Source of the DNA: a phage
Length of the DNA: 64,000 nt
Strand: one strand, 5' to 3'
Sequence record: PZ386973.1
The position numbers and the translations under genes were made by a program. Of the stretch, positions 20,569 to 32,455 are shown piece after piece. Position 1 is the stretch's first letter, and every line of letters begins with the position of its first letter. The notes beneath the pieces were generated by a model. The model saw only the letters and a list, made by a program, of their open reading frames with translations, was not told where the DNA came from and searched no databases.

Positions 20569-20801
20569 ATATTCATAAATTAGAGAACAGCGAGCCGATT
20601 ACGCTGAGTGCAGAATCCCAACCGGAGCGCATTGAATAGAGTCGGTGGGTTAGTTGTAAAACTAGTACACAGGGGGCGGCAATCCCGGTTAGTGGCTAGA
20701 ACGTGTAAAATGGGGCGTCTGAAACCTCTCCCTTAAACTCTTCTCTAATCTATAAATAGTGGGGTGTGGAAATCACTTATGTAGTAACACTGCCGTCCTA
20801 A

Positions 20802-20888
20802 GTTAATTGGTAGACTTCTGCACGCGGAGATTATATCTCCAGATGCGGAAAGTGCAGGTTCGAATCCTGCGGTCGGTAAGAACTGGAT
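20802..20888 (+). tRNA. tRNA-like element (isotype unresolved)
   Basis: GGTTCGAATCC T-loop; acceptor GCCGTCC/GGTCGGT has one mismatch; anticodon arm not resolved. Confidence 0.35.
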
Positions 20889-25087: not shown

Positions 25088-25162
25088 GGTTCTCAAGCTC
25101 ATATGGTATGAGCACCCGGCTCATAACCGGAAGGTACGTAGGTTCGAATCCTCGGGGAGCCA
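25088..25162 (+). tRNA. tRNA with CAT anticodon (Met or Ile2)
   Basis: Acceptor GGTTCTC/GGGAGCC with G-U pairs, D-stem GCTC/GAGC, loop CTCATAA; T-stem pairing weak. Confidence 0.55.
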
Positions 25163-28741: not shown

Positions 28742-28754
28742 AAAACAATCAAAC

Positions 28755-28875
28755 ATTCTAGCGTGGTTGATGGGGAAACCAGCTTGGCTAGGGCAGAAGC
28801 TCGTTCGATTCGAGTGGAAGAATGGTTCTCGTAAGTCCGCACAAGTGATAACAGGTTCGAGTCCTGTCTAGAATG
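28755..28875 (+). tRNA. tRNA-like element with two tandem T-arm hairpins
   Basis: ATTCTAG...CTAGAAT outer pairing; GCTCG-TTCGATT-CGAGT and ACAGG-TTCGAGT-CCTGT; too long for a canonical tRNA. Confidence 0.3.
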
Positions 28876-28884
28876 ACACTATAA

Positions 28885-29010
28885 AGTTTACTTATTGAGT
28901 AGGTTCCGATAGATCGGCGGGTCTATTCTGGCATTTAAGAGAGGTCTCGCAAACTTCTTTGTCAGCCGTGGGGTTCATAGCCTCCAGGTGGCCTACACAA
29001 TAAGTAAATT
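28885..29010 (+). ncRNA. candidate structured RNA closed by a 12-13 bp long-range stem
   Basis: AGTTTACTTATTG (28885-28897) pairs with CAATAAGTAAATT (28998-29010). Confidence 0.3.
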
Positions 29011-29024
29011 TATTAAAAATTCAT

Positions 29025-29085: not shown

Positions 29086-29244
29086 ATGAAACACAAGATA
29101 GCTCAAGTTTTTATGGCATTATGGTGTATGCCAATAGCTATAACAGCATTTAATCTAGATACTCTTACTATAGAAGAAAAATGTATCGGATTAGTTAGCG
29201 GCTTTAGTATGCTGGGCTTATCTTTGCTGTGGTTAAAGAAATAA
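29086..29244 (+). CDS. small hydrophobic membrane protein
   Basis: ATG after AGGAAAG; 52 codons with two hydrophobic segments; the overlapping minus-strand track ORF was rejected. Confidence 0.45.
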   Translation: MKHKIAQVFMALWCMPIAITAFNLDTLTIEEKCIGLVSGFSMLGLSLLWLKK

Positions 29245-29248
29245 TATT

Positions 29249-29323
29249 CTCCGTGTAGCTCAGTTTGGCCAGAGCGTTTCGTTTGGGGCGATAGGGTCGG
29301 GGGTTCAAATCCTCCCACGGAGA
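29249..29323 (+). tRNA. tRNA-Pro (anticodon TGG)
   Basis: Acceptor CTCCGTG/CACGGAG, D-arm GCTC...GAGC, loop TTTGGGG. Confidence 0.65.
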
Positions 29324-29333
29324 CCAAACAATT

Positions 29334-29407
29334 GCGGGTTAGATCTCTGGTAGAGATCGCTAGTCTCATAAGCTAGAAAGAGGTAGGTTCGATTCCTGCA
29401 CCCGCTT
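29334..29407 (+). tRNA. tRNA with CAT anticodon (Met, fMet or Ile2)
   Basis: T-arm GTAGG-TTCGATT-CCTGC, loop CTCATAA; acceptor end pairing ambiguous at position 1. Confidence 0.5.
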
Positions 29408-29430
29408 CCATTTTAATAGAGGATTTCGAA

Positions 29431-29598
29431 ATGAAAGTATTTCGATTAGTAGTAAGTGATAAACGTTTAGGTAAGAATACATCAAAATCCTTACTCGCTC
29501 ATTACGGTAAAAATTGGGATGAAGTAATGGTAGAGTTTAGTACTAATCACCCTTACCTGAAAGTTCACTCTATTAAAGAAGTATACAATGGTTACTAA
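29431..29598 (+). CDS. hypothetical small protein
   Basis: ATG 29431; 55 codons. Confidence 0.4.
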   Translation: MKVFRLVVSDKRLGKNTSKSLLAHYGKNWDEVMVEFSTNHPYLKVHSIKEVYNGY

Positions 29599-29599
29599 T

Positions 29600-29675
29600 A
29601 GATCGCTAGCTCAATAGGTTTAGTAGCATCCGACTTTTAATCGGAAGGTTCTGGGTTCAAGTCCCAGGCGATCTA
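29600..29675 (+). tRNA. tRNA-Lys (anticodon TTT)
   Basis: Acceptor AGATCGC/GCGATCT, anticodon stem TCCGA/TCGGA, loop CTTTTAA. Confidence 0.75.
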
Positions 29676-29696
29676 CCAATTTCAAGAAAAACGCAG

Positions 29697-29725
29697 TTGC
29701 TTGATGCTTAATTTCTTGTTATAAT
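29697..29725 (+). promoter_or_regulatory. early promoter module
   Basis: TTGCTT-N17-TATAAT followed by a GATGAGGATTTCTCCTCATC hairpin. Confidence 0.55.
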
Positions 29726-29963
29726 ATTTATATAAATTGATGAGGATTTCTCCTCATCATAGTTCACTAAGGTATTAGCTCGACCTAGGACTGGCTGCCA
29801 AAAAGCACGATCCCTACGATTCGGGAGAAGTTCTAGATTAGTCCACTAGATTCAGCGGCAACTGAATAGTGTATCGGGTTTGCGAGATGACGTAGTTCCT
29901 TCCGCTCGAAGCGAAGGTGCTGTAGTTACGCCGAGCTAATAGCCTTAGTAAATTAAAGAATTT

Positions 29964-30039
29964 GGGGGATGGGTCTGCTAGGAGTGGACACCTCGCTTGC
30001 ACCGAGGACATCAGAACGATTCGAATTCGTTATCCTCCA
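29964..30039 (+). tRNA. tRNA-Ala (anticodon TGC)
   Basis: Acceptor GGGGGAT/ATCCTCC, anticodon stem CCTCG/CGAGG, loop CTTGCAC. Confidence 0.65.
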
Positions 30040-30047
30040 CCAAATAC

Positions 30048-30121
30048 GCGTGATTGATGGAATGGGCATACATACCGTCCTTAGAAGTCGGGTTTTGAGG
30101 GTTCGAATCCCTTGTCACGCA
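30048..30121 (+). tRNA. tRNA, anticodon read as TAG (Leu-type) on a class I body
   Basis: Acceptor GCGTGAT/GTCACGC, T-arm GAGGG-TTCGAAT-CCCTT, loop CTTAGAA, A73; D-arm pairing unclear. Confidence 0.5.
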
Positions 30122-30236
30122 CCAAATTTGATGGTCAGAGTAAATTAAACCTACTATCTCGGTTGAGCTGTTTTAATGGGTTCGAATCCCAGCGAGGCGT
30201 AACTGCCTGGCGTGATAGAGGCATCATCTTATTATT

Positions 30237-30324
30237 GGAAGAGCAAATCGAATTGGCGACGAAAACCGCTTGGAAAGTGGCTGACTGGTAAAACGGCTTG
30301 AGAGTTCAAATCTCTTCTCTTCCG
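30237..30324 (+). tRNA. tRNA-Ser (anticodon GGA)
   Basis: Acceptor GGAAGAG/CTCTTCC, loop TTGGAAA, long variable arm. Confidence 0.6.
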
Positions 30325-30339
30325 CCAAACAATTTATAT

Positions 30340-30431
30340 GGTAGGTCAATCCAAAGGCTGGCGCTGGACTCCGACTTGAAATCGGTTGATCGTAGTGATA
30401 CGGTGTAAGGGTTCGATCCCCTTACCTACCT
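30340..30431 (+). tRNA. tRNA-Ser (anticodon TGA)
   Basis: Acceptor GGTAGGT/ACCTACC, anticodon stem CCGA/TCGG, loop CTTGAAA, long variable arm. Confidence 0.65.
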
Positions 30432-30439
30432 CCAAATCT

Positions 30440-30570
30440 TGGAATATGCCGGAATTAGTAGACGGGACTGCCGAATAGGTTTACTAGGAACATCCACTCC
30501 TAGAAATATACCTTAAAGGCGGTTGAGATAAATGGTCTATCTCGTGAAGGTTCAAGTCCTTCTATTCCTT
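30440..30570 (+). tRNA. tRNA-like element (Leu-type D-arm, over-length)
   Basis: GCCGGAATTAGTAGACGGG resembles a Leu D-arm; T-arm GAAGG-TTCAAGT-CCTTC; 131 nt, no clean cloverleaf. Confidence 0.3.
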
Positions 30571-30684
30571 GATACATCAATGGCTCAAAGTGTAACGGTG
30601 CTATTTGATGCTCTTGGAAAGACTTTCCCGACAGGCGTTCGGGGGTAAGCTTCTGAGGCTAGAATAGAAGAGTTTCTGAGAGCC

Positions 30685-30804
30685 GCCACAATTGAAAATT
30701 CGTACTCGTCTTGAGCTGCGTGCAATAGGAGATAACTTGATTAGTATTCTAGAACATGCTAATTGAGGATGGTTTCGCTAACCCTGCGAGTTTTCAATTG
30801 TGGC
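30685..30804 (+). ncRNA. candidate structured RNA closed by a perfect 14-bp long-range stem
   Basis: GCCACAATTGAAAA (30685-30698) is the exact reverse complement of TTTTCAATTGTGGC (30791-30804). Confidence 0.35.
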
Positions 30805-30873
30805 TATATCATAATTGGTTAATGATCCTGATTGTGAATCAGGCCTATGTGGATTCGAATTCCACTAGCCACC
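30800..30873 (+). tRNA. tRNA-His (anticodon GTG)
   Basis: Acceptor GTGGCTA/TAGCCAC, anticodon stem CCTGA/TCAGG, loop TTGTGAA, C73. Confidence 0.7.
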
Positions 30874-30901
30874 CCAAATTAACTTAAATAGGAAATAAAA
30901 T

Positions 30902-31099
30902 ATGGCTGATTTCTGCAAACAATGCTCTATTGATATGTGGGGCAGAGATACTGGTGATCTTTCTGGTTTGATTACAGAAGCCGAAGTTAAAGAAGGTTAT
31001 GGTGCAGTTGTGATTTGCGAAGGATGCGGAGTTATTCGAGTGGATCATGAAGGCAAACGTTTAGAAGAGCAGGAAAATTTAGGAGAAACAAATGAGTAA
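30902..31099 (+). CDS. small Cys-rich protein
   Basis: CKQC...CEGCG. Confidence 0.45.
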   Translation: MADFCKQCSIDMWGRDTGDLSGLITEAEVKEGYGAVVICEGCGVIRVDHEGKRLEEQENLGETNE

Positions 31100-31328
31100 T
31101 GCCTTAATTAGTGAAATTATGTTAACACGTCTTGCAGAATTACAAACTCTTCGAGATGAATCTCAGAATAACTTAGCCTACCATAAACAGATGGTAGATA
31201 CTCTTACTACTCGTATTGAAACTTACGAGCGCGATATTGCAGCATTACAAGCCCTTTTCTCTGTGTCAGCACCCGATACGTTAGAACAGCCTCCTGTGTC
31301 TCAGCCGGTAGAAACAGCATCTAGTTAA
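31092..31328 (+). CDS. hypothetical protein
   Basis: Track ORF. Confidence 0.45.
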   Translation: MSNALISEIMLTRLAELQTLRDESQNNLAYHKQMVDTLTTRIETYERDIAALQALFSVSAPDTLEQPPVSQPVETASS

Positions 31329-31337
31329 TAGCATTCT

Positions 31338-31410
31338 TGGAGTGTAGATCAATTGGCAGATCGTCGGCCTCTGACTCCGAAGGTTCCTGGTTCGATCCCA
31401 GGCACTCCAG
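31338..31410 (+). tRNA. tRNA-Gln (anticodon CTG, tentative)
   Basis: Acceptor TGGAGTG/CACTCCA, T-arm CCTGG-TTCGATC-CCAGG, loop CTCTGAC. Confidence 0.6.
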
Positions 31411-31419
31411 CCAAACAAT

Positions 31420-31492
31420 TGGAGAGTAGTGTAACGGTTAGCACAACGGCCTTTGACTCCGTTAATGGTAGGTTCGATTCCTCCTTCTCCAG
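31420..31492 (+). tRNA. tRNA-Gln (anticodon TTG)
   Basis: Acceptor TGGAGAG/TTCTCCA, D-stem GTGT/GCAC, loop CTTTGAC. Confidence 0.6.
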
Positions 31493-31503
31493 CCAAATAA
31501 TAG

Positions 31504-31576
31504 GCGGTTAAGCACACGGGTTGTGTCGCAGGCCTTCCAAGCCTCGCTGAGTAGGGTTCGATTCCCTCTAGCCGCT
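31504..31576 (+). tRNA. tRNA-Gly (anticodon TCC)
   Basis: Acceptor GCGGTTA/TAGCCGC, loop CTTCCAA. Confidence 0.6.
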
Positions 31577-31595
31577 CCAACTTTAAGGAAACGTT

Positions 31596-31847
31596 ATGCA
31601 CGTTTTTGAGTTTCGTAATAAAAGTACCGATAAACGAGTTATTGTTATTGGAGAAACATACCGAGCATACGAACAAACTGACGGCTCTGTTATCCTGAAT
31701 GATGAGAAAGGAGGTTTTAGCTTTTATCCAGAAGAACCTTATGAAGAGTTTCGAAAACAATTTAACCTAGACTGGAGAAAGCATTTAAACACTGTTGCTT
31801 CATCTGTAGTATTGCCAACTACCAGTACTGTACCCCCTAATGGCTGA
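31596..31847 (+). CDS. hypothetical protein
   Basis: Track ORF; the minus-strand track ORF 31281-31760 across the tRNAs was rejected. Confidence 0.45.
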   Translation: MHVFEFRNKSTDKRVIVIGETYRAYEQTDGSVILNDEKGGFSFYPEEPYEEFRKQFNLDWRKHLNTVASSVVLPTTSTVPPNG

Positions 31848-32004
31848 CAACCTAAAAGTAAAGATCGATAAACAAAAGAAACGTGTAGAAGTAGAGATTG
31901 GTGAAGAACGTGTAGCCTTCACCTTTGAATTTCTTCAGCAGTTGGCAATGACAGTTATGACTGATAAGTCTCCTGTTATTGAAAAAGAAATCCCGTTGAA
32001 ATAA
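31840..32004 (+). CDS. hypothetical small protein
   Basis: ATG 31840 overlapping the upstream stop; 54 codons. Confidence 0.4.
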   Translation: MADNLKVKIDKQKKRVEVEIGEERVAFTFEFLQQLAMTVMTDKSPVIEKEIPLK

Positions 32005-32012
32005 CGGGTTTT

Positions 32013-32084
32013 GCTCCTAAAGCATTGCTGGCGATGCAGTTGCCTTGTAAGCATCTGAACCGGGTTCGATTCCTGGTGGGAGCA
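32013..32084 (+). tRNA. tRNA-Thr (anticodon TGT)
   Basis: Acceptor GCTCCTA/TGGGAGC, D-stem GCAT/ATGC, loop CTTGTAA. Confidence 0.65.
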
Positions 32085-32102
32085 CCAAATTTAAAAATTC
32101 AT

Positions 32103-32131
32103 TTGCCTTCTCTCTTATTTATTGTTATAAT
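32103..32131 (+). promoter_or_regulatory. early promoter module
   Basis: TTGCCT-N17-TATAAT. Confidence 0.55.
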
Positions 32132-32161
32132 ATTTATATAAATTAATGAGAGGGAAACCAA

Positions 32162-32455
32162 ATGAAACGTTATCTTTCTGTATTATTCCAAGCTGGTGGT
32201 CAACGCTATACTTACGAATTTCCTAGCTCTTGGAAAATAAAAGAAGGTGATCAAGTAGTAGTGTTAACACCACGTGAAGGGTATAAAGTAGTAACGGTTA
32301 AACAAGTATTTCCAAAAGATCATGAACCGGCTAAAGGCATTCGCTATAAGATGATTCATGGTGTGGTTCGTCAAGTACCACGAGCGGAAGTAGAAATCAG
32401 AGTAGATAAAGATGGTAAACTTAAGTATACTTCTTGCTTAGATGAGTTACTATAA
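32162..32455 (+). CDS. hypothetical protein
   Basis: Track ORF. Confidence 0.45.
   Translation: MKRYLSVLFQAGGQRYTYEFPSSWKIKEGDQVVVLTPREGYKVVTVKQVFPKDHEPAKGIRYKMIHGVVRQVPRAEVEIRVDKDGKLKYTSCLDELL

What the first reader, a model, noticed from the sequence alone, without database searches (positions are those of the whole stretch)
30685..30804. Perfect 14-bp long-range stem enclosing about 92 nt and overlapping the 5' end of tRNA-His
GCCACAATTGAAAA (30685-30698) is the exact reverse complement of TTTTCAATTGTGGC (30791-30804). The 3' arm contains the first nucleotides of the tRNA-His acceptor stem, so the structure would compete with tRNA folding. The enclosed sequence has no ORF.
Basis: seen in the sequence. 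Interest (0 to 1): 0.6.

Follow-up and report, generated by a model that had tools for sequence, protein, structure and literature searches.

The report
Phage T5 RNA III processing stalk
The stem is real and closes a small stable RNA (RNA III) already annotated in phage T5; related phages put unrelated RNAs in this slot but keep a helix of about 20 bp, most likely as a cutting site that frees RNA III and the neighbouring tRNA-His.

Summary
The inverted repeat is confirmed. It is 14/14 exact, 18 nt by repeat extension and 20 bp when folded (30685-30704 with 30785-30804), and far beyond chance. The enclosed element is not new. It is 100% identical to the stable RNA 'RNAIII' (window 30693-30798) annotated in the phage T5 GenBank record. 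It lies between tRNA-like 'RNAI' (30582-30688, 3' end GCCA) and tRNA-His (30800-30876). The helix runs 8 bp beyond the annotated RNA III ends. It covers the GCCA end of RNA I, a CAAU spacer and nucleotides 1-5 of tRNA-His. In relatives this slot holds at least five unrelated cassettes of 77-158 nt. All keep a 19-21 bp closing helix through compensatory changes. Klebsiella phages keep it with a different outer sequence and pairing register. Mismatches are nearly all G.U on the + strand, so selection acts on the RNA. The annotated RNA III ends lie symmetrically in a conserved CAAUUG palindrome and leave a 2-nt 3' overhang. My best explanation (inferred, not shown) is a host RNase III processing stalk. 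In the uncleaved precursor the helix is predicted to beat the tRNA-His acceptor stem by 8.7 kcal/mol. The function of RNA III remains unknown.

The parts
30582..30688 (+). RNA I homologue: a tRNA-like stable RNA with acceptor-type stem GGCUC/GAGCC and a single-stranded 3' end GCCA. Its GCCA (30685-30688) forms the first four nucleotides of the 5' arm.
   Evidence: 97.2% identical over 107 nt to T5 misc_RNA rnaI. The fold places the acceptor-type stem directly against the helix.
30685..30704 (+). 5' arm of the 20-bp helix: GCCA (RNA I 3' end), then the CAAU spacer (30689-30692), then the first 12 nt of RNA III.
30689..30694 (+). CAAUUG palindrome, copy 1. The annotated RNA III 5' end (30693) falls after CAAU. 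It is invariant in all T5-type loci across five cassette alleles.
30693..30798 (+). RNA III, a 106-nt stable RNA of unknown function. It has a 12-bp closing stem and three hairpins (30706-30732, 30736-30767, 30771-30783).
   Evidence: 100% identical to T5 misc_RNA rnaIII. Structure. No Rfam family matches.
30785..30804 (+). 3' arm of the 20-bp helix: the last 14 nt of RNA III, then U(-1) of tRNA-His (30799), then tRNA-His nucleotides 1-5 (30800-30804).
30795..30800 (+). CAAUUG palindrome, copy 2. The annotated RNA III 3' end (30798) falls after CAAU.
30800..30876 (+). tRNA-His (GUG). The T5 record annotates it from 30799, which includes U at position -1.
29678..29761 (+). Homologue of T5 promoter P13b, the probable start of the polycistronic transcript that carries RNA2H, tRNAs, RNA1, RNA I, RNA III and tRNA-His. 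This role is inferred.
   Evidence: 89% identical to the T5-annotated P13b. No + strand sigma-70-like site between it and 31600.

Best explanation
The stem is the closing helix of the known phage T5 stable RNA III, extended outward by 8 bp into a 20-bp processing stalk in a polycistronic tRNA/sRNA precursor.

The proposed sequence of events is as follows:
1. The stalk forms as soon as its 3' arm is transcribed. It loops out RNA III and sequesters the GCCA 3' end of RNA I and nucleotides 1-5 of tRNA-His.
2. Host RNase III, a dimeric double-strand-specific endonuclease, cuts both strands symmetrically inside the conserved CAAU|UG palindrome, at 30692|30693 and 30798|30799.
3. The cuts release RNA III with a 12-bp closing stem and a 2-nt 3' overhang. 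They leave RNA I with a 4-nt CAAU tail that is trimmed back to GCCA. They free the tRNA-His 5' end carrying a 1-nt leader.
4. The tRNA-His acceptor stem can then form, and RNase P or exonucleases can finish the job.

What is shown here: the identity with T5 RNA III; the helix; its conservation by covariation and at nearly constant length in five unrelated cassette alleles and two phage clades; selection at the RNA level on the + strand; and the position of the annotated ends within the helix.

What is inferred: the nuclease (RNase III), the order of events, and the assumption that the GenBank ends are experimental. The cellular function of RNA III itself stays unknown. Its interior is structurally conserved, at least in allele E, so it is more than a spacer.
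For: 1. Identity. The window is 100% identical to T5 rnaIII over 106 nt and has the same neighbours, RNAI and tRNA-His.

2. Helix. There are 20 consecutive pairs, z = -6.67.

3. Five unrelated cassettes occupy the slot between RNA I and tRNA-His:
- A = T5 RNA III, 120 nt including arms.
- B = 77 nt.
- C = 135 nt.
- D = 147 nt.
- E = 158 nt.
All keep an invariant outer 11 bp, GCCACAAUUGA/UCAAUUGUGGC, and a covarying inner 9 bp. Total helix length is 20 bp in A, B, D and E, and 21 bp in C.

4. Pair counts on 10 distinct arm pairs. 98.5% of cells are paired, 8 pairs carry double changes, and 0/500 shuffles reach the observed paired fraction or covariation score. Slid controls give 29-47% paired.

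5. Klebsiella T5-like phages keep a 19-bp helix with a different outer sequence, CCAAAUUUG/CAAAUUUGG. It pairs the CC of the RNA I CCA end with G1 and G2 of a different tRNA-His 5' end. Outer pairs show compensatory changes, AU<->CG and UA<->AU.

6. Non-Watson-Crick cells number 18 G.U against 3 other. This is the pattern expected for + strand RNA, not for DNA or the - strand.

7. End geometry. The annotated T5 RNA III ends give exactly a 2-nt 3' overhang inside the longer helix. RNA2H also gives 2 nt and RNA IV gives 1 nt, each within its own stalk of about 20 bp. The tRNA-like RNA I and rna2 instead end in single-stranded GCCA and ACA tails.

8. Published E. coli RNase III rules (PMC1540722; PMC3867540). 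The ideal substrate is 22 bp, at least 11 bp is needed beyond the cut, and GC/CG is inhibitory at proximal-box positions 2 and 4. In this helix 12 bp lie inside the cut. Positions 2 and 4 are A:U and U:A for the 5'-strand cut, and U:A and U:A for the 3'-strand cut (read directly from the sequence).

9. Precedent. [quoted passage not shown]

10. In the precursor the full helix is in the MFE, 8.7 kcal/mol better than a fold with the tRNA-His acceptor stem.
Against: - No cleavage data were available to me. I could not see the basis of the GenBank coordinates for RNA III, and the RNA III/tRNA-His boundary may have been drawn as contiguous by convention.
- Proximal-box position 3 is G:C at both predicted cuts, whereas the published optimum is A:U. 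Position 1 is A:U, not G:C, for the inner set.
- Only 6-8 bp lie outside the cuts. That half-site would have to rely on the inner box set or on stacking against the RNA I acceptor stem.
- RNA IV shows a 1-nt overhang, not 2 nt.
- A cut at 30798|30799 leaves U(-1) on tRNA-His, so RNase P is still needed. RNase P alone could make that 3' boundary.
- The outer 11 bp never vary among T5-type loci. Evidence for selection on the outer pairing rests on the comparison with the Klebsiella clade and on wobble-compatible changes.
Confidence: 0.55

Rival explanations
1. The RNA III and its helix are the same, but RNase III is not involved. RNase P cuts at the tRNA-His 5' end and at the RNA I 5' end. Another endonuclease (RNase P acting on a 12-bp minihelix-like stem, or RNase E) makes the RNA III 5' end, and 3' exonucleases trim back to the stems. 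The long helix then serves mainly as a closing stem and exonuclease block that makes RNA III stable, and perhaps as a binding platform.
For: The RNA III 3' end is at most 1 nt from the RNase P site of tRNA-His. RNA I has a tRNA-like acceptor stem and GCCA end typical of RNase P/exonuclease maturation. The inner 12 bp equal the length of a stacked acceptor plus T stem. Proximal-box position 3 is not optimal for RNase III.
Against: This does not explain several observations:
- The never-matured CAAU spacer (30689-30692) and the pairing of RNA I's CCA with tRNA-His 5' nucleotides are kept in two clades with different sequence and register.
- Total helix length stays at 19-21 bp in five unrelated cassettes.
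- The annotated 5' end lies inside a continuous helix with a 2-nt stagger, also seen for RNA2H.
In addition, leader-trailer pairing is unfavourable for RNase P (established knowledge), and RNA III has no RCCA 3' end.
Confidence: 0.25
2. This is a regulatory competition. The helix is a switch that holds back tRNA-His acceptor-stem folding and the RNA I CCA end, so that the amount or timing of mature tRNA-His depends on whether the helix forms or is resolved.
For: The helix includes tRNA-His nucleotides 1-5 and the RNA I GCCA end. In the precursor it is favoured by 8.7 kcal/mol over the acceptor stem and is transcribed first. The overlap with both neighbours is kept in Klebsiella phages.
Against: No alternative conserved structure, ligand pocket or anti-stem was found. 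The helix is predicted to form always, so it acts as an obligatory intermediate rather than a switch. Stalks around RNA IV and RNA2H have the same design but do not show the same kind of overlap with a tRNA 5' end.
Confidence: 0.1
3. This is a DNA-level feature. The 11-bp perfect inverted repeats are terminal repeats of a small mobile cassette, or a recombination or homing-endonuclease site that drives cassette exchange in the tRNA region.
For: Unrelated cassettes sit at one site between invariant inverted repeats. T5-type tRNA regions carry HNH homing endonucleases, and the tRNA regions of relatives are mosaic.
Against: - The arms covary beyond the invariant 11 bp.
- Imperfections are 18 G.U against 3 other, which is strand-specific and so points to RNA.
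- The repeats are parts of functional RNAs (the RNA I CCA end and the tRNA-His 5' end).
- There is no target-site duplication and no copy elsewhere in the window.
- No empty site was found in IMG/VR, although that search needed an exact match.
Cassette exchange by ordinary recombination in the conserved flanks is enough to explain the polymorphism.
Confidence: 0.05

Closest known systems
Phage T5 stable RNA III (misc_RNA rnaIII in GenBank AY692264; also annotated in DT57C and DT571/2 as 'stable RNA with unknown functions')
   Same: The 106-nt sequence is identical, and so are the neighbours (RNAI upstream, tRNA-His downstream) and the strand.
   Different: There is no difference in the RNA itself. 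The records mark only the mature RNA. Neither the annotations nor the papers I could search mention the 8-bp outward extension of the helix, the alternative cassettes or the constant helix length.
RNase III processing stalks: 16S/23S rRNA precursors, T7 early RNA sites such as R1.1, and RNase III cuts in the T4 tRNA precursor
   Same: Sequences flanking the product pair over a long range into a helix of about 20 bp. The product ends lie inside the helix with a 2-nt 3' overhang. GC pairs are absent from proximal-box positions 2 and 4.
   Different: Cleavage by RNase III was not shown here. The looped-out product is a small RNA of about 60-145 nt. The stalk also sequesters the CCA end of one tRNA-like RNA and the 5' end of a tRNA. 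Proximal-box position 3 is not optimal.
Phage T4 species 1 and species 2 RNAs (rnaC, rnaD)
   Same: They are small stable RNAs of unknown function encoded next to a tRNA inside a phage tRNA gene cluster.
   Different: Folding T4 rnaC and rnaD with flanks shows no closing stalk of about 20 bp. rnaC has a canonical T arm (GGGUUCGAAUCCC) and a short acceptor-like stem. No sequence similarity was seen.
T5 RNA IV and RNA2H, other stable RNAs of the same gene cluster (window 28897-28999 and 29773-29944)
   Same: Both have long closing helices that continue beyond the annotated mature ends. The ends have 1-2-nt 3' overhangs. RNA IV also folds into three hairpins inside a stalk of about 21 bp, z = -5.73.
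   Different: The sequences are unrelated, and their stalks do not overlap a tRNA 5' end in the same way.

Membership tests
T5 RNA III (annotated stable RNA) | Sequence match to T5 rnaIII over its full length | tested here: met
   106/106 identical, window 30693-30798. Alignment.
T5 RNA III (annotated stable RNA) | Position between RNA I and tRNA-His on the tRNA-coding strand | tested here: met
   RNAI maps to 30582-30688 and tRNA-His to 30799/30800-30876.
T5 RNA III (annotated stable RNA) | Accumulates as a stable RNA in infected cells | not testable with these tools
   The only basis is the GenBank label 'stable RNA with unknown functions'. No expression data were available.
E. coli RNase III substrate (processing stalk) | Continuous double helix of about two turns (about 20-22 bp), with at least 11 bp beyond a cut | tested here: met
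   The helix is 20 bp, 19-21 bp in all alleles. 12 bp lie inside the 5'-strand cut. Only 6 bp lie outside the 3'-strand cut.
E. coli RNase III substrate (processing stalk) | No GC/CG pair at proximal-box positions 2 and 4 (PMC1540722) | tested here: met
   Relative to the annotated ends, the inner set is U:A (position 4) and A:U (position 2). The outer set is U:A and U:A. Position 3 is G:C in both, which is not optimal (sequence; rules).
E. coli RNase III substrate (processing stalk) | Product ends staggered with a 2-nt 3' overhang | tested here: inconclusive
   The annotated T5 ends give exactly 2 nt, but I could not verify the experimental basis of those coordinates.
E. coli RNase III substrate (processing stalk) | Cleavage depends on rnc / occurs with purified enzyme | not testable with these tools
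   No data.
tRNA / tRNA-like (Rfam RF00005 clan) | Match to the tRNA covariance model | tested here: not met
   No hit at E <= 1 within 30570-30799. None for alleles B-E at E <= 5.
Any curated RNA family (Rfam 15, including Y RNA/YrlA) | Covariance-model match | tested here: not met
Intrinsic terminator | GC-rich hairpin followed directly by a U run | tested here: not met
   The helix is followed by UAUAUCAU of tRNA-His. The one scan hit, 30774-30790, is a 5-bp sub-hairpin inside the 3' arm.
Small mobile element with terminal inverted repeats | Repeats selected at DNA level, several copies, target-site duplication | tested here: not met
   Single copy in the window. The G.U-only imperfections are strand-specific. 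The flanks are functional RNA ends.

The most novel reading that the evidence does not exclude
The slot between RNA I and tRNA-His is a plug-in site for fast-evolving structured small RNAs. The conserved stalk of about 20 bp would act as a universal excision adaptor, letting any cassette be cut out of the tRNA precursor. The interchangeable cassettes (A-E, each a multi-hairpin RNA) would be host-directed effectors, for example decoys or inhibitors of tRNA-targeting or RNA-sensing defence systems. That role would explain their allelic turnover among otherwise near-identical phages.
Probability: 0.12. Interest if true: 0.7.

Novelty: already known. Interest (0 to 1): 0.33.

Why it matters
The object flagged is a phage T5 stable RNA whose GenBank annotation still reads 'unknown functions', so as a discovery it is not new.

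The follow-up adds three things that are useful for annotation and experiment:
- Many T5-like genome records leave this region blank or call spurious 'hypothetical proteins' over it.
- The helix is longer than the mature RNA. It ties together the maturation of three neighbouring RNAs: RNA I, RNA III and tRNA-His.
- The helix is kept at about 20 bp through complete replacement of the interior in at least five alleles.

That makes a simple prediction about RNase III dependence of T5 tRNA-His and stable-RNA maturation. It also flags the slot as a polymorphic small-RNA locus worth testing for a role in host range or defence evasion.

Tried and rejected
- Rfam scans with permissive E-values, of the window's tRNA region and of six relatives. 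Only tRNAs were found, and nothing for RNA I or any cassette.
- Literature searches for T5 RNA III, stable RNAs, DT57C annotation, T5 transcriptomics and T5 with RNase III. No paper in the searchable library discusses RNA III. From memory only, and not verified: the T5 stable RNAs were sequenced in the late 1970s to 1980s by the Bayev/Ksenzenko group, and T4 species 1 RNA was reported as an in vitro RNase III substrate.
- Search for an empty slot (RNA I joined directly to tRNA-His) in IMG/VR. There were 0 hits, but the search required an exact match.
- Metagenome scan with the 3' junction 17-mer. Of the 169 loci carrying the 17-mer across all loci held at that point, 39 continue into a T5-type tRNA-His. 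It yielded no new alleles.
- T4 rnaC and rnaD as structural analogues. Rejected, because they have no long closing stalk.
- A similar-looking long-range repeat at 20570-20590 with 20738-20758. The fold is not better than shuffles, z = +0.38, so I dropped it.
- A separate promoter for RNA III. No + strand site was found.
- Coding potential. Rejected, because the interiors are unrelated among alleles while the pairing is kept.
- Chance. Rejected.

Full report
**Observation**

The 14-nt arms are present exactly as described. With up to one mismatch, the motif and its reverse complement are the only two matches in the window. The expected number is 0.02, and 0 of 100 shuffles reach two. The repeat finder extends the arms to 18 nt, 30685-30702 with 30787-30804, with 17 Watson-Crick pairs and one G.U. 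Folding 30685-30804 gives 20 consecutive pairs, 30685-30704 with 30785-30804, closing three hairpins. The energy is -45.4 kcal/mol, z = -6.67, and none of 200 shuffles fold as well. ARAGORN and Rfam both start tRNA-His(GUG) at 30800, so the 3' arm contains tRNA nucleotides 1-5.

**What it is**

The window is the tRNA gene region of a T5-like phage, with 22 tRNAs found by ARAGORN. The region matches 641 phage records, mostly Salmonella and Escherichia Demerecviridae. The T5 GenBank record AY692264 annotates four features in a row here: misc_RNA RNA1, RNAI, RNAIII and tRNA-His. DT57C labels RNAI and RNAIII 'stable RNA with unknown functions'.

Mapped onto the window:
- RNA1 = 30438-30581.
- RNA I = 30582-30688 (97% identity).
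- RNA III = 30693-30798 (106/106 identical).
- tRNA-His = 30799-30876.

The finding is therefore the closing stem of a known stable RNA plus 8 further base pairs on the outside. The outer part of the 5' arm is the GCCA 3' end of the tRNA-like RNA I (acceptor-type stem GGCUC/GAGCC) followed by a 4-nt spacer, CAAU. The outer part of the 3' arm is U(-1) plus G1-C5 of tRNA-His. No Rfam family matches RNA I or RNA III, even at E <= 1.

The T5 promoter P13b maps to 29678-29761. No other + strand promoter-like site lies before 31600. RNA III is therefore probably part of a polycistronic precursor (inference).

**Relatives**

BLAST with RNA I plus RNA III showed three kinds of record. Some hold the whole query, some match only its RNA III portion, and some match only RNA I up to the 5' arm. 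I read the sequences from GenBank loci and IMG/VR contigs. The slot between RNA I and tRNA-His holds at least five unrelated cassettes:

| Allele | Length incl. arms | Example phages |
|---|---|---|
| A (T5 RNA III) | 120 nt | T5, DT57C, CitS1, this window |
| B | 77 nt | S147, rutana |
| C | 135 nt | chee158, bombadil |
| D | 147 nt | 1Sgal2PP, GSW6 |
| E | 158 nt | Enterobacter phage KKP_3711, Salmonella PRF-SP13 |

In GenBank phages, 267 records hold most of the RNA I plus allele-A query. 201 records hold one of alleles B-E.

All alleles keep the outer 11 bp, GCCACAAUUGA/UCAAUUGUGGC, unchanged. The next 9 bp differ in sequence but stay paired. The helix is 20 bp in A, B, D and E, and 21 bp with one mismatch in C.

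On ten distinct arm pairs:
- 98.5% of cells are standard pairs.
- 8 of the 9 inner pairs show changes on both sides.
- 0 of 500 shuffles reach the observed paired fraction or covariation score.
- Sliding the partner by 1-3 columns drops pairing to 29-47%.
- The non-Watson-Crick cells are 18 G.U against 3 others. These would be mismatches on the opposite strand or in DNA, so selection acts on the + strand RNA.

**A second clade**

Allele E also occurs at 72-84% identity in Klebsiella T5-like phages (Sugarlandvirus). There RNA I ends in GGGCC-ACCA and tRNA-His begins GGGAUAU. The helix is still present, as 19 bp plus an A.G mismatch, but with a different outer sequence: CCAAAUUUG.../...CAAAUUUGG. 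It has an 8-nt palindrome, and the register pairs the CC of the CCA end with G1 and G2 of the tRNA.

In the seven-sequence alignment of allele E, two outer pairs change on both sides (AU<->CG and UA<->AU). The interior folds into three hairpins. Of 56 predicted pairs, 14 carry compensatory changes.

Two conclusions follow:
- The extension of the helix into RNA I's CCA end and the tRNA-His 5' end is selected. It is not a by-product of the two neighbours' own sequences.
- The cassette interior is itself a structured RNA, at least for allele E, rather than a spacer.

**Mechanism**

The annotated RNA III ends lie inside the helix. U30693 pairs with A30796 and the 3' end is U30798, which gives a 2-nt 3' overhang. 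Both ends fall after CAAU in the two copies of the CAAUUG palindrome, so the two cuts are symmetric about the dyad. This is the signature of a dimeric double-strand endonuclease, RNase III.

Published rules for the E. coli enzyme are as follows (PMC1540722; PMC3867540):
- The ideal substrate is 22 bp.
- At least 11 bp is needed beyond the cut.
- GC/CG is inhibitory at proximal-box positions 2 and 4.
- One box set is sufficient to specify a site.
- Natural sites are degenerate.

In this helix 12 bp lie inside the cut, and positions 2 and 4 are A:U or U:A at both predicted cuts. Position 3 is G:C, which is not optimal.

Two other T5 stable RNAs in this window are also looped out by stalks of about 20 bp that continue beyond their annotated ends. 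RNA2H has a 2-nt overhang and RNA IV a 1-nt overhang. The tRNA-like RNA I and rna2 end instead in single-stranded GCCA and ACA tails.

In the 30582-30876 precursor the MFE structure (-99.9 kcal/mol) contains the full helix and leaves the tRNA-His acceptor stem unformed. Forcing the acceptor stem gives -91.2. The 3' arm is also transcribed before the acceptor 3' strand. The stalk should therefore form first, and it must be cut or displaced before tRNA-His can fold. After the predicted cuts, only a 6-bp intermolecular duplex (-9.3 kcal/mol) holds the tRNA 5' end.

The nuclease assignment, the order of events and the experimental status of the GenBank ends are all inferences.

**Rivals**

- An RNase P/exonuclease route without RNase III remains possible. 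The RNA III 3' end is within 1 nt of the RNase P site. This route does not explain the conserved spacer, the constant helix length or the staggered 5' end inside a continuous helix.
- A standing regulatory switch has no support beyond the overlap itself.
- A DNA-level inverted repeat (mobile cassette or endonuclease site) is contradicted by the strand-specific G.U pattern and by covariation beyond the invariant part.

**Function of RNA III**

It remains unknown. A T5 deletion mutant lacking 29191-32442 is viable. In the T5 reference this range covers RNA I, RNA III and tRNA-His: AY587007 places them at 30198-30427. [quoted passage not shown] The region is therefore dispensable on laboratory E. 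coli and is not the PARIS suppressor. The turnover of unrelated structured cassettes at a fixed site invites the speculation that they are host-directed small RNAs. I give that a low probability.

**Comparison and novelty**

The RNA is already known and annotated. It belongs to no curated RNA family. It works most like an RNase III processing stalk, as in rRNA precursors, T7 early RNAs and the T4 tRNA precursor. Phage T4's species 1 and 2 RNAs share the genomic setting but lack such a stalk.

Three points appear not to be recorded in the annotations or in the papers I could search:
- the outward extension of the helix;
- the multi-allelic slot;
- the conserved helix length.

**Verdict**

Interest is modest.

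Noticed in passing
window 30799-30800 and 30873; also L179-L184: tRNA-His has U, not G, at position -1, with C73 and an acceptor stem (GUGGCUA) identical to the E. coli tRNA-His acceptor stem as I recall it (not checked here). U(-1) is also present in all T5-type relatives and in the Klebsiella phages. Bacterial HisRS normally needs an encoded G(-1) (established knowledge). The T5 record annotates the tRNA as 78 nt starting at this U.
   Followed up: partly
window 30582-30688: RNA I is tRNA-like only at its ends (GGCUC/GAGCC stem, discriminator G, CCA). Its interior exists in two unrelated alleles, T5-type and CitS1/S116/rutana-type, with conserved ends. These combine freely with the RNA III-slot alleles. 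It has no Rfam family.
   Followed up: partly
window 30438-30581: The T5 'RNA1' homologue looks like a tRNA with a canonical T arm (GAAGGTTCAAGTCCTTC) and acceptor-like ends, but with a large internal insertion. Neither ARAGORN nor the tRNA covariance model calls it.
   Followed up: no
window 28884-29011 and 29773-29944: The RNA IV and RNA2H homologues are each enclosed by long-range stems that extend beyond the ends annotated in T5. RNA IV has a stalk of about 21 bp, three hairpins and z = -5.73. RNA2H's closing helix continues about 12 bp outward. The design matches RNA III, which suggests a common excision mechanism.
   Followed up: partly
window 28754-28878: The T5 'rna2' homologue is another pseudo-tRNA. 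It has an 8-bp acceptor-like stem, a canonical T arm (GCAGGTTCGAATCCTGT) and a 3' end ACA instead of CCA.
   Followed up: no
window 20792-20878, 25088-25162, 30340-30430, 31503-31576: The Rfam models find tRNAs that ARAGORN missed. Two match the tRNA model (20792-20878, 25088-25162) and two match the tRNA-Sec model below its threshold (30340-30430, 31503-31576). The hit at 30340-30430 appears to correspond to one of the two tRNA-Ser genes annotated in T5/DT57C, and 31503-31576 by position to T5 tRNA-Gly. The other tRNA-Ser (about 30240-30330) was called by neither tool.
   Followed up: partly
window 30130-30240 and 31092-31328: This phage lacks the two HNH endonuclease genes that T5 carries between tRNA-Leu and tRNA-Ser and between T5p060 and tRNA-Gln. 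A 78-aa ORF (31092-31328) sits at the second position. DT57C and many Epseptimaviruses have a tRNA-Arg(ACG) directly after tRNA-His that is absent here. The region is highly mosaic.
   Followed up: no
window 30902-31099: A 65-aa ORF lies just after tRNA-His. It has two CxxC pairs (CKQC...CEGC), is homologous by position to T5p060 ('similar to Felix O1 p023/p024'), and is conserved next to tRNA-His in most relatives.
   Followed up: no
window 20570-20590 / 20738-20758: A 21-nt, 86% complementary long-range inverted repeat lies upstream of the tRNA at 20792. The fold is not better than shuffles (z = +0.38), so it is probably not a structured RNA.
   Followed up: yes
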